58,640 nt of DNA from a virus. Taxonomy: Duplodnaviria; Caudoviricetes. Position 1 is the stretch's first letter, and the number at the start of each line of letters is the position of its first letter. Below, in pieces: positions 1 to 58,640 of the stretch. The notes under the pieces were generated by a model that did not search any database, was not told where the DNA came from, and saw nothing but the letters and a program-made list of their open reading frames with translations. The stretch is from positions 1 to 58,640 of IMG/VR virus record IMGVR_UViG_3300040971_000021, one strand, 5' to 3'. Both the position numbers and the translations under genes were made by a program.

Positions 1-84
1 TAACGTTCCGCATAACTTGCGGACTACTGGATTACGCTAAAAGCGCAGGCGTTATTACCGTCAAAGTTAATGCGCTGGTTAGTT
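1..84 (-). mobile_element. attC-like integron cassette recombination site (completed by 58633-58640 across the end junction)
   Basis: Minus strand: R'' AACTAAC (84-78), 5-nt spacer, L'' CATTAACT ... L' AGTTATG, 6-nt spacer, R' GTTATGC (58639-58633 if the shared TAACG ends are joined). This is canonical 5/8/7/6 geometry with one extra base in L''. Confidence 0.7.
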
Positions 85-102: not shown

Positions 103-354
103 ATGTTGAATAAAATACCCTTTATAGGTTGGATGTTTACTGCTATTGCCGCCGTTGGTCTTGCGGTGCCTTTCTGGTTTTTCTGGACTGTTTGCGGGAT
201 AGGAGCAACATATTTCTATTTTGTCCCTGAAGTGTTCAGGGTGATTCCTTTCTGGGATTGCTTCGGGCTGTTTATTGTTATTTTGATTGTAAAAGGGACA
301 TTAGTGCCGAAATTATTTAGCGTGTCAAATACGCAGAAGGTTGGCGAAAACTAA
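103..354 (+). CDS. small two-TM membrane protein, cassette-borne
   Basis: AGGAG at 91-95, ATG at 103; hydrophobic segments; flanked by complementary GTTAGTT (78-84) and AACTAAC (349-355). Confidence 0.75.
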   Translation: MLNKIPFIGWMFTAIAAVGLAVPFWFFWTVCGIGATYFYFVPEVFRVIPFWDCFGLFIVILIVKGTLVPKLFSVSNTQKVGEN

Positions 355-425
355 CAGTGCAATAAGTGGAAACAATTCCATCTATTAACGCCATTAACCA
401 ATAAACATGGAACCGAGTAGCAAAC

Positions 426-478
426 AAAAAACCCTGTGCCCAACAGCAGACGTTCTGCCAGGCACAGGGTTTAGTTTT
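426..478. terminator. bidirectional intrinsic terminator between converging early and late units
   Basis: 12-bp stem AAACCCTGTGCC/GGCACAGGGTTT with an A-run on the left and a T-rich tail on the right. Confidence 0.7.
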
Positions 479-2820: not shown

Positions 2821-2916
2821 TTCAAACTCCTTTGAAATTTACTCATAAGTAAATTCAGGGCAGGCGGTGAGTAGCCGCTTTTCGGGCTCGATTCCCTATC
2901 CCTAAAATCTTTATTT

Positions 2917-4874: not shown

Positions 4875-5005
4875 TTTGCTACCTCTTTATTTATAAAATA
4901 AAACATCAATATTAGCCAACAGCATTCCCCTACCCATCCACACTTAGGGCACTCTTCTTTATAATCAGGCAATCTTGTATTGCATTCAGGGCAGTATGAT
5001 TTCAT
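4871..5005 (-). CDS. small zinc-ribbon protein (44 aa)
   Basis: Hand-read ORF with CPEC...CPKC, ATGA overlap with next gene. Confidence 0.45.
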   Translation of the reverse strand: MKSYCPECNTRLPDYKEECPKCGWVGECCWLILMFYFINKEVAK

Positions 5006-5063
5006 CACCACTTACCAATTATTTATACCGGAAGAAAAAACATTACTACTTCAAACCACGTCA

Positions 5064-5516
5064 TCATGATAGCAGCTTACCCGAATCCCTTGGAGTTCCT
5101 AGGATAAAGGTAAAAGTAGTTGGCATGGCTGGCATTAGGTCAAGTTCAATGCAACTATAATTTGGTATATCAATTTCAAGTTTACCGGTTTCAGATGGAA
5201 AACCACCATTACCAAACACTTCCTCTGCTCTTCCTTCCCAATGCGCTGGAACTCCATCTAATTCTTCCACCCAATTGATTGCATCAGGGTTGGCGTAAAT
5301 AGGCTCTACTCCAGATATAGCGTTAAGCTCCTGCACATTCCTTGCAGCTTTTTTCAGTGCATAAAGCCAGTCAAGCTCCTCCGTGGTTACTGGCTCAGTA
5401 ACAAGCTCTTCGTTGATGTAGGTGTAATTCCCATCGGCATCCAGCACAGGGACCTGCTCTGTAATCGTGCGAGTAACAACGGCATTTGCTCGATTTAATT
5501 TCATAAAAATTCGCAT
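5064..5516 (-). CDS. hypothetical protein (possible tail fibre accessory/chaperone)
   Basis: 150 aa, directly after tail fibre. Confidence 0.6.
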   Translation of the reverse strand: MRIFMKLNRANAVVTRTITEQVPVLDADGNYTYINEELVTEPVTTEELDWLYALKKAARNVQELNAISGVEPIYANPDAINWVEELDGVPAHWEGRAEEVFGNGGFPSETGKLEIDIPNYSCIELDLMPAMPTTFTFILGTPRDSGKLLS

Positions 5517-57315: not shown

Positions 57316-57452
57316 GACTATCCATAGCTAGACGCGCCGGAATCAGCCAAGGCAACCGCAGAATGGCCCCTTGAATGATTGACTACGGAATGTTCACAAG
57401 AAGAGGCGCTGAAAGAGATCGTCTTTTCAAAATAATATTATGACGAGGGGGA

Positions 57453-57641
57453 ATGATGAAAAAGCGAGTGCTGAAAAAAGTTGGCAGGTATAAGTGCCCA
57501 AGGCACAGCCAAAGAGAAGGTGGTGTCTTTAAGCACTACCAACTCAAAACTGGAAGATGGGTTTCTTCATGTACCTATTGTTTTATATGTGGAAACGTTA
57601 AAGATGGTCGGCAGGTATCTAAGCCAATAACCACAAAATAA
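57453..57641 (+). CDS. small basic Cys-containing protein
   Basis: GAGGGGG RBS. Confidence 0.55.
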   Translation: MMKKRVLKKVGRYKCPRHSQREGGVFKHYQLKTGRWVSSCTYCFICGNVKDGRQVSKPITTK

Positions 57642-58017: not shown

Positions 58018-58277
58018 TGACTCTATCCTATGACGAAGCGCGTTGCTCAGGCACCAACGCCGAACTCTGCCAGAAATGCGCCCGTAGAGATCCAGGGCGT
58101 GACGAATATCAGAGCCATGTTGGGCCTGAGTATGATATGCTGAATAACTTTTGCATGAACTGGATTCCGAAGGGGAATAATGAAAAATATAGCAATGGTT
58201 CCACACTCAAGACGACTGCACAAAAGAATATGGTGGCAATGGAAAATGCCATGGTGGTGGGAGCAGTTATGTTATGA
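58017..58277 (+). CDS. Cys-rich hypothetical protein
   Basis: TAATG coupling; D.ARC.G....C..C.R motif; 3' part overlaps 58180-58308. Confidence 0.5.
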   Translation: MTLSYDEARCSGTNAELCQKCARRDPGRDEYQSHVGPEYDMLNNFCMNWIPKGNNEKYSNGSTLKTTAQKNMVAMENAMVVGAVML

Positions 58278-58308
58278 GTTAAAAATACAGAGATATTACG
58301 GAGTATAA
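58180..58308 (+). CDS. small Trp-rich protein (42 aa)
   Basis: Hand-read ORF with GAAGGGGA RBS; stop TAA lies in the attC R' box. Confidence 0.4.
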   Translation: MKNIAMVPHSRRLHKRIWWQWKMPWWWEQLCYELKIQRYYGV

Positions 58309-58387
58309 CGCAAAGCTTAGCGGCAGGCCACTGGACATGGCCTGACATACTGCACGTAATCCTGTCCGCTGGAGTGACTGGTTATGC
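58303..58387 (-). mobile_element. attC integron cassette recombination site
   Basis: Minus strand GCATAAC-cagtc-ACTCCAGC-GGAC...GCC-GCTAAGC-tttgc-GTTATAC; classic attC pattern with extra bases on the R''/L'' arm. Confidence 0.8.
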
Positions 58388-58638
58388 CAATACTTGATTG
58401 CTTTACTGATGAGCAAAAATTGGCTCTTGTAAAATATGAAAATTTATCTGGCTTTGAACCTATGCACCAAGACGAGTTTGCTGCGGGGGAAATGTCATTT
58501 GAAGAATTATGGAGGTCTAACCAGCATTGGTTTCATAGCTTACAAAACGAAGTAAGTAACATAAATGCTCCAGTCGGTATTGTTGACGATGATGGGTTTG
58601 ATTTAATCCATTTTATTGATCACATTGAAAGAGCATAA
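58384..58638 (+). CDS. acidic hypothetical protein, cassette-borne
   Basis: ATG lies in GTTATGC (58381-58387) and stop lies in the complementary GCATAAC (58633-58639). Confidence 0.7.
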   Translation: MPILDCFTDEQKLALVKYENLSGFEPMHQDEFAAGEMSFEELWRSNQHWFHSLQNEVSNINAPVGIVDDDGFDLIHFIDHIERA

Positions 58639-58640
58639 CG

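What the first reader, a model, noticed from the sequence alone, without database searches (positions are those of the whole stretch)
58303..58640. Integron gene cassettes in a phage, with genes inverted relative to attC (array continues into 1-355)
Seen: two attC sites on the minus strand (58303-58387; 58633-end joined to 1-84), each with canonical R''/L''/L'/R' spacing and extra bases. Each plus-strand gene is bounded by its own exactly complementary 7-mers (GTTATGC/GCATAAC; GTTAGTT/AACTAAC), the signature of circular cassettes integrated at G|TT. The stop codons are the TAA of the R' boxes, and one start codon lies in the R'' box. Established: cassette genes normally run toward their attC and need IntI; no intI is present here. 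Inference: a phage-adapted cassette pool mobilised by a host integrase and oriented so that the early operon expresses the genes, i.e. a site-specific route for accessory gene shuffling in phages.
Basis: partly seen in the sequence, partly recalled or inferred. Interest (0 to 1): 0.8.

Follow-up and report, generated by a model that had tools for sequence, protein, structure and literature searches.

The report
Integron gene cassettes inside a phage
Two small accessory genes at the end of this phage's early operon are bounded by genuine integron recombination sites of the kind found in its likely host family, a kind of phage-borne gene cassette already reported in 2023.

Summary
The two sites are real attC sites. 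A covariance model I built from 14 class 1 integron attC sites ranks them first and second in the whole 58.6-kb record, both on the minus strand: 23.1 bits (E 0.002), and 13.8 bits for the site cut by the record's start. Both have full-length relatives among attC sites of Desulfocapsa-family genomes. That family is the likely host, because the phage carries its CRISPR repeat, and 55 of 101 genomes searched encode an integron integrase.

Each gene plus its attC forms a unit whose first bases complement its own R'' box (7 of 7, and 9 of 9). Genes A and B run antisense to their attC sites and sense to the early operon.

The record holds no recombinase. The join of the two ends is not shown. It needs a 5-base overlap rather than abutment, and the assembly graph forks exactly at the last base. 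A 62,404-base contig may hold about 3.8 kb more.

attC clusters in phages are in print (Qi et al. 2023), so this is a new member of a known kind. This scan has also noted integron-like arrays in other phages.

The parts
58303..58387 (-). attC site 1. R'' is GCATAAC (58387-58381) and R' is GTTATAC (58309-58303). The crossover G|TT lies between 58309 and 58308. The L'' box read on the plus strand supplies GGAG (58371-58374), 9 nt before the gene A ATG.
   Evidence: Best covariance-model hit of the window (23.1 bits, E 0.0022). Full-length relatives in host-family genomes.
58384..58638 (+). Gene A, 84 aa, no known family. It runs antisense to the attC top strand.
   Evidence: Translation. Four relatives at 67-73% identity. 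No Pfam or PHROG match. A 41%-identical relative in L102 is a conventional cassette.
58633..58640 (-). The first six bases of cassette A (58638-58633) plus the last two bases (C-G) of whichever attC precedes it on the minus strand. The record ends here.
   Evidence: Sequence. Assembly graph forks exactly after 58640.
1..84 (-). attC site 2. R'' is AACTAAC (84-78). L'' and L' form 7 pairs with one extra T. R' starts GTTA at 4-1 and is cut by the record start. The crossover G|TT lies between positions 4 and 3.
   Evidence: Second-best model hit (13.8 bits, model 4-57). Relatives at 69-88% identity over 32-89 nt (four of them over about 80 nt or more) in 7 of 187 host-family genomes, whose conserved part ends at the same G.
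103..354 (+). Gene B, 83 aa, a small hydrophobic (probably membrane) protein with SD AGGAG at 91-95. It runs antisense to the attC top strand.
   Evidence: Translation. 25 relatives. The nearest atlas cluster is 95% viral.
347..355 (-). Outer border of the array. G (complement of 355) is followed by TTAGTTTT, which is the exact complement of the R'' region of site 2.
   Evidence: 9 of 9 inverted repeat, 78-86 with 347-355.
429..472 (.). Two-way terminator hairpin that closes the early operon 75 nt beyond the array.
   Evidence: Fold z -4.3 and -4.9. Terminator scan.
58180..58308 (+). Last phage ORF before the array. Its TAA lies in the R' box of site 1.
   Evidence: A groundwater relative keeps this ORF at about 91% identity and diverges right after ATAACG.

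Best explanation
The phage carries a short cluster of integron gene cassettes without an integrase (a CALIN) at the far end of its early operon, just before the two-way terminator.

Read on the minus strand, the array is: phage DNA, then G|TT, then cassette B (gene B antisense plus attC site 2), then G|TT, then cassette A (gene A antisense plus attC site 1), then G|TT, then phage DNA.

Shown: both attC sites belong to attC families of the chromosomal integrons of the likely host family (Desulfocapsa and relatives). The unit borders lie at the integron crossover point.

Inferred: a host IntI folded the bottom strand (the window's plus strand) of these sites in single-stranded phage DNA and inserted the cassettes at a GTT site. 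The orientation that survived puts both ORFs, each with its own ribosome-binding site, in the sense of the early transcript. The phage population in the source sample still differs in cassette content at the site 2 crossover.

The function of genes A and B is unknown. My guess, at low confidence, is host take-over or exclusion functions.
For: 1. Model: R1 was built from 14 class 1 attC sites. It scores further attC-like sites in the same plasmid loci that were outside the training set and not near-copies of a training site at 22.7-50.3 bits. It ranks the two sites first and second in the window, both on the minus strand.
2. Specificity: 160 other viral loci (2.05 Mb) gave 5 hits at the E limits set. 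The three at 20 bits or more lie in two loci, each locus holding a pair of hits.
3. Host link: the phage's 35-nt CRISPR repeat occurs 37 times, exactly, on a Desulfocapsa MAG contig. That genome has IntI at 437.5 bits with attC hits upstream on the opposite strand. IntI exceeds the curated cut-off in 55 of 101 family genomes.
4. Homology: site 1 and site 2 align over their full length with attC sites in family genomes. Two of the site 1 matches lie 1.8 kb and 13 kb from an IntI gene on the same contig.
5. Crossover: in site 2 relatives the conserved part stops at G, and the next six bases differ in all four relatives whose alignment reaches that point.
6. Own-end complementarity: 7 of 7 and 9 of 9. 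The same signature appears in a textbook cassette lying between the portal and head genes of a phage that shares gene B and the methyltransferase.
7. The assembly graph forks exactly at the site 2 crossover.
Against: - The join of the ends is not shown. If they do not join, the two sites are 58 kb apart on a linear record.
- Site 2 alone is not significant under the model (E 0.43).
- Fold z-scores are weak.
- My model is home-made, and IntegronFinder's own model was not run.
- Genes A and B were found in 0 of 101 host-family genomes. Of 20 viral loci with gene B relatives, only L082 had attC hits, and those lie about 4 kb from the gene. So neither gene is tied to the host cassette pool.
- All 8 host cassettes examined have conventional ORF orientation, so an inverted ORF beside such an attC is unexplained.
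- No recombination was observed.
- About 3.8 kb of genome may be missing and could hold anything, including a recombinase.
Confidence: 0.65

Rival explanations
1. Integrated phage or chimeric contig. The two ends of the record would be host integron cassettes flanking a phage inserted at the G|TT of site 1. Genes A and B would then be host cassettes, not phage cargo.
For: The layout is equivalent: removing 355-58308 would leave a regular array with site 1 followed by the start of cassette B. The record is 'linear', 94% complete. Both ends stop at crossovers. A 62,404-base contig carries both proteins. The shared TAACG is expected at any attC junction.
Against: - No tyrosine or serine recombinase in the record.
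- Both ORFs run with the phage early operon and against their attC sites, unlike 8 of 8 host cassettes.
- The nearest atlas cluster to gene B is 95% viral.
- Genes A and B were found in 0 of 101 host-family genomes.
- There is no graph fork at 58308/58309, where a free phage form would split off.
- 58640 / 62404 equals CheckV's 94%, as if a 62.4-kb complete phage genome exists (inference).
Confidence: 0.15
2. A piece of host cassette array was picked up by illegitimate or homologous recombination. The sites would now be inert relics, with no integrase involved.
For: Qi et al. raise this route for phage CALINs (PMC9892861, section 3.4). No integrase is encoded in the phage. No excision or insertion was observed.
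Against: Both outer borders fall exactly at G|TT, and each unit's first bases complement its own R''. The genes are not host-like. The population fork sits exactly at a crossover.
Confidence: 0.12
3. Ordinary intergenic hairpins that resemble attC by chance.
For: Fold z is only -1.2 to -1.8. The two spacers are not similar to each other (76 of 500 shuffles score as well). Inverted 7-mers are common: I estimate about 80 pairs by chance in 1.6 kb, and GCATAAC occurs 5 times against 7.2 expected.
Against: They are the top two model hits of 117 kb searched, side by side on the same strand. Both have full-length homology to host-family attC sites.
Confidence: 0.03

Closest known systems
Clusters of attC sites lacking an integrase (CALINs) in phage genomes: Qi, Rajabal, Ghaly, Tetu and Gillings 2023, Front Microbiol, PMC9892861 (I read the abstract and sections 2.1 and 3.4, and ran a term search)
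   Same: Two or more attC sites with cassettes and no intI inside a phage, including virulent phages. Cargo is small genes of unknown function. One of their CALINs also lies beside a terminator. They propose that host IntI acts on the sites, and they showed this for 5 of 6 phage sites with IntI1.
   Different: This is an uncultured phage with a likely host in Desulfocapsa. Its attC sites can be matched over their full length to the host family's own attC families. Both ORFs are antisense to their attC and use its L'' and R'' boxes as ribosome-binding site and start codon. The source population forks at a crossover. My term search of that paper found no mention of ORFs inverted within cassettes. 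Its supplementary tables were not open to me.
Sedentary chromosomal integrons of the host family (IntI plus attC arrays)
   Same: The same attC families, the same crossover and the same box spacing.
   Different: No intI or attI here. ORF orientation is reversed (8 of 8 host cassettes are conventional). The cargo genes were not found in 101 family genomes.
Cassette insertion at secondary GTT sites by IntI (recalled from the integron literature; not looked up here)
   Same: The outer borders lie in non-attC phage DNA at a G|TT. The array has a single attC-less border.
   Different: The target here is a phage operon end. The event itself is inferred.
Promoter-stem-loop (PeSL) shuffling cassettes of T4-type phages (recalled, not looked up)
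   Same: Small accessory phage genes bracketed by structured intergenic elements.
   Different: PeSLs are repeats of one another and carry promoters. Here the two spacers are unrelated to each other and no promoter was found.

Membership tests
Integron attC site | R'' (RYYYAAC) and R' (GTTRRRY) boxes at the ends, able to pair | tested here: met
   Site 1 has GCATAAC and GTTATAC, which pair at 6 of 7. With each cassette's own first bases the match is 7 of 7 (site 1) and 9 of 9 (site 2). One position of each box departs from the consensus, as it does in the ereA attC control.
Integron attC site | L''/L' boxes with an extra unpaired base on the L'' side, a 5-nt R''-L'' spacer and a 5-6-nt L'-R' spacer | tested here: met
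   Model alignments. The extra base is on the minus-strand 5' half in both sites.
Integron attC site | Score above threshold with an attC covariance model | tested here: inconclusive
   With my own model R1, site 1 scores 23.1 bits (E 0.0022). Site 2 scores 13.8 bits (E 0.43) and is cut by the record start. Attc hits beside the host's IntI score 13.6-18.5 bits. IntegronFinder's model is not on hand.
Integron attC site | Homology to attC sites of real integrons | tested here: met
   Two site 1 matches lie 1.8 kb and 13 kb from IntI genes. An attC in the array beside the host's IntI matches the 3' part of site 1 at 94% over 18 nt.
Integron attC site | Recombined by IntI as a folded single strand | not testable with these tools
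   Needs the attC x attI conjugation assay.
Complete integron | intI gene and attI beside the array | tested here: not met
   0 candidates for TIGR02249, PF00589 and PF00239 in the record. No attC or attI-like hit in 355-480.
CALIN | At least two attC sites within a few kb, with no intI | tested here: inconclusive
   Met only if the record's ends join. On the linear record the sites are 58 kb apart.
PeSL-type phage shuffling cassettes | Flanking elements are repeats of one another and carry an early promoter | tested here: not met
   Alignment is no better than shuffles. No promoter found.

The most novel reading that the evidence does not exclude
A phage-side cassette pool. These would be cassettes whose ORF is antisense to the attC and borrows the attC's own boxes as ribosome-binding site and start codon. 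They would be silent in a bacterial integron but expressed once a host IntI drops them into a phage operon. They would still be exchanged in the wild phage population: the fork at the site 2 crossover would be a cassette gain or loss of about 3.8 kb.
Probability: 0.3. Interest if true: 0.75.

Novelty: new member of a known kind. Interest (0 to 1): 0.55.

Why it matters
It ties a phage-borne attC cluster to the integrons of a named host lineage by sequence homology of the sites themselves. The published phage survey, limited to sequenced isolates, could assign its sites only to one of 11 broad bacterial taxa.

It also offers a concrete test for ongoing integrase-driven exchange between phage and host cassette pools. 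The assembly fork at the crossover, the 62.4-kb contig and the host IntI gene are all at hand for that test. If the inverted, self-translating cassette layout is general, integron surveys that expect ORFs to run towards their attC would miss or misread phage cargo.

Tried and rejected
- **Close relatives in the phage collection:** none by megablast or blastn with either end of the window.
- **Primase relatives:** they share no neighbouring genes with the window. Portal relatives reach at most 42% identity. So I had no whole-genome relative to test for an empty site.
- **Gene A and gene B as single proteins:** no viral loci found.
- **Exact 31-mer from the window end:** 0 viral contigs.
- **Metagenome loci with gene A relatives (12):** none shows attC hits. 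L115 packs the gene tightly between neighbours.
- **Inverted 7-mers by script around 20 gene B relatives:** no consistent pattern.
- **Fold z-scores:** they do not separate true from false, since 3 of 13 controls are as weak as the window's sites.
- **A 14-mer of site 2 in viral contigs:** 118 or more hits. The 80 loci scanned gave one 17.4-bit hit, not at the 14-mer, so these are chance matches.
- **Other copies of either site's core in the window:** none.
- **Rfam:** no match at either site; the only hit in the window is the int-alpA RNA at 2840-2906 listed under noticed in passing.
- **Runs X5 and X6:** they cover only scraps of the stretch. I draw no habitat or absence claim from them.
I did not search for it, because it is a joined sequence.
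- **Supplementary tables of PMC9892861:** They may list cassette orientations.

Full report
**What the record is.** The window is a whole IMG/VR virus record of 58,640 bases, classed 'linear' and 94% complete by CheckV. Lysis and structural genes (endolysin, spanin-like, portal, terminase, major head protein) lie on the minus strand from about 800 to 39,000. Early and replication genes (methyltransferase fusion, primase-helicase) lie on the plus strand from about 39,300 to the end. The plus-strand operon would run over the end of the record into bases 1-354 and stop at a strong two-way terminator hairpin at 429-472. No tyrosine or serine recombinase is encoded.

**The observation.**
- GTATAAC 58303-58309
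- GTTATGC 58381-58387
- GCATAAC 58633-58639
- GTTAGTT 78-84
- AACTAAC 349-355

The last pair extends to 9 of 9. The stop codons of ORF 58180-58308, gene A and gene B lie in these boxes, and so does the gene A start codon. Short inverted repeats are common by chance. GCATAAC is not enriched in the genome (5 found, 7.2 expected), although 3 of the 5 sit within the last 260 and first 16 bases. So the boxes alone prove little.

**The attC model test.** No attC model is in Rfam (its window scan, matched neither site), so I built one.
- Source material: R751 and eight other plasmids with class 1 integrons. I marked 14 attC sites from stop codon to GTTRRRY and aligned them.
- Model: R1 was built with the R box, the L box with one unpaired base, and two further pairs.
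- Controls: the training sites score 28.7-80.6 bits. Further sites in the same loci that were outside the training set and not near-copies of a training site score 22.7-50.3 bits. Reverse strands of true sites score at most 15.9 bits.
- Window scan: on the whole window, both strands, filters off, the best hit is 58303-58387 minus (23.1 bits, E 0.0022, full length). The second is 1-81 minus (13.8 bits, E 0.43, model positions 4-57, cut by the record start). Nothing else exceeds 10.4 bits.
- Null: 80 primase loci (1.34 Mb) and 80 loci picked by a chance 14-mer (0.71 Mb) gave five hits in all. The three at 20 bits or more lie in two loci, each holding a pair of hits, and look like real attC sites.
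- Fold energies: these are weak for the window's sites (z -1.2 to -1.8), but 3 of 13 true sites are just as weak. This measure does not decide.

**Host link.** I checked this.
- The 35-nt repeat occurs 37 times, exactly, on one contig of a Desulfocapsa MAG.
- That genome encodes an integron integrase at 437.5 bits (cut-off 265). attC hits lie upstream on the opposite strand, as in an integron.
- Of 101 genomes of its family, 55 have IntI above the cut-off.

**Homology of the sites.**
- Site 1 DNA finds attC sites in family genomes that share its R''-spacer-L'' stretch at 21 of 22 bases, and also its L'-spacer-R' part. One shares the variable middle as well (82% over 54 nt, E 1e-6). Two of the matches lie 1.8 kb and 13 kb from an IntI gene on the same contig.
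- Site 2 DNA finds relatives in 7 of 187 genomes, the best at 78% over 81 nt (E 2e-10).
- In these relatives the conserved part ends at the G that corresponds to window position 4. The next six bases differ in all four relatives whose alignment reaches that point. This is the G|TT crossover, and it means the window begins three bases into the next cassette.
- In 8 of 8 host-family loci the nearest upstream ORF runs with the strand I call the attC top strand.

**Cassette units.**
- On the minus strand, the R'' of site 2 complements the bases at the outer border (347-355) at 9 of 9, but complements its own downstream R' at only 4 of 7.
- The R'' of site 1 complements the bases after the site 2 crossover at 7 of 7, against 6 of 7 for its own R'.
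- This is the pattern left by circular cassettes inserted at G|TT.
- A control from nature: G002 is a 98%-complete phage that shares gene B and the methyltransferase with this one. It holds a textbook cassette between its portal and head-morphogenesis genes, bounded by two attC hits. Its first bases complement its own R'' at 7 of 7.
- A 41%-identical relative of gene A in viral contig L102 is itself a conventional cassette at the head of four more attC-bounded units.

**The genes.** Both are real. Gene A has four relatives at 67-73% identity. Gene B has 25 relatives and, to judge by its sequence, looks like a two-helix membrane protein. Neither matches Pfam or PHROGs. The nearest atlas cluster to gene B is 95% viral. 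Neither family was found in 101 host-family genomes. Each gene has a ribosome-binding site: AGGAG at 91-95 for gene B, and GGAG at 58371-58374 for gene A. The latter is the L'' box of site 1 read backwards.

**The ends.** Contigs of the source sample (runs X1 and X3, which may be the record's own source and so are not independent) show a 4,444-base unitig that stops exactly at 58640. Two unitigs overlap its last 30 bases, one of 977 bases (depth 14) and one of 54 bases (depth 10), against depth 28 for the phage.
- So the population forks at the site 2 crossover.
- A pure junction between two branching nodes that share 6 bases would be 54 bases long at k = 31. That fits a direct join of end to start through ATAACG. 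This is arithmetic, though, not sequence.
- The proteins of genes A and B both occur on a contig of 62,404 bases, and 58640 / 62404 equals CheckV's 94%.
- My reading, as inference: some genomes join directly with a 5-base overlap, and others hold about 3.8 kb more at that crossover.
- The shared TAACG is expected at any attC junction, so it is weak evidence.
- In a groundwater run, a contig of depth 2 keeps ORF 58180-58308 at about 91% identity and diverges right after ATAACG, at the site 1 crossover. This is thin evidence.

**Rivals.**
- The serious rival is a phage integrated in, or mis-joined to, a host cassette array. The layout allows it. Against it stand the orientation of both ORFs, their viral kinship, the lack of any recombinase, and the absence of a fork at 58308/58309.
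- Capture by non-integrase recombination does not explain borders that fall exactly at G|TT.
- Chance is nearly excluded.

**Novelty.** Qi et al. 2023 (PMC9892861) found 17 CALINs among 10,705 phage genomes, including virulent phages. They showed that 5 of 6 phage attC sites recombine with attI1 under IntI1 (sections 2.1 and 3.4). My term search of that paper found nothing on ORFs inverted within cassettes or on Desulfo- hosts. Searches turned up no other paper on attC sites in phage genomes. This scan has also noted integron-like arrays in other phages, mostly beside Xer-type recombinases. Those notes are unchecked by me and are not used as support.

**Verdict.** This is a new member of a known kind. 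It has three useful extras: site-level homology to the host family's integrons, antisense self-translating cassettes, and a population fork at the crossover.

Noticed in passing
window 2840-2906, minus strand: Rfam int-alpA RNA (RF02996) at 36.8 bits against a gathering score of 35.8, between lysis-region genes. This RNA is usually found near integrase/AlpA genes of prophages (recalled), yet the record has no integrase.
   Followed up: no
L163 6944-7448 (G002:C1:35943-36447): A 128-aa ORF bounded by two attC hits sits between the portal and head-morphogenesis genes of a 98%-complete phage, on the opposite strand to them. Its first bases complement its own R'' at 7 of 7.
   Followed up: partly
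L102 4940-6320: A viral contig with a Rha-like gene holds at least five one-gene cassettes in a row. Four attC sites were found by the model and one by eye. The first cassette encodes a gene A relative.
   Followed up: partly
L062 494-1008 and L027 15692-16342: Pairs of attC hits (52.7 and 17.5 bits; 32.1 and 26.7 bits) in viral contigs that were fetched only for their primase-helicase gene.
   Followed up: no
L096 about 4960-5300: A gene B relative is flanked on both sides by the same 18-nt palindrome (ATGTTTCACGTGAAACAT). This is a different kind of bracket.
   Followed up: no
L150 (G005:C42:24000-42000): The candidate host has a second, broken integrase-like gene (one TAA inside) with attC hits on both strands within 6 kb.
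   Followed up: no
window 57444-57463 and 58168-58187: Two copies (90% identical) of a 20-nt ribosome-binding-site-plus-start stretch head ORFs 57453-57641 and 58180-58308. The proteins are not alike beyond the first two residues.
   Followed up: no
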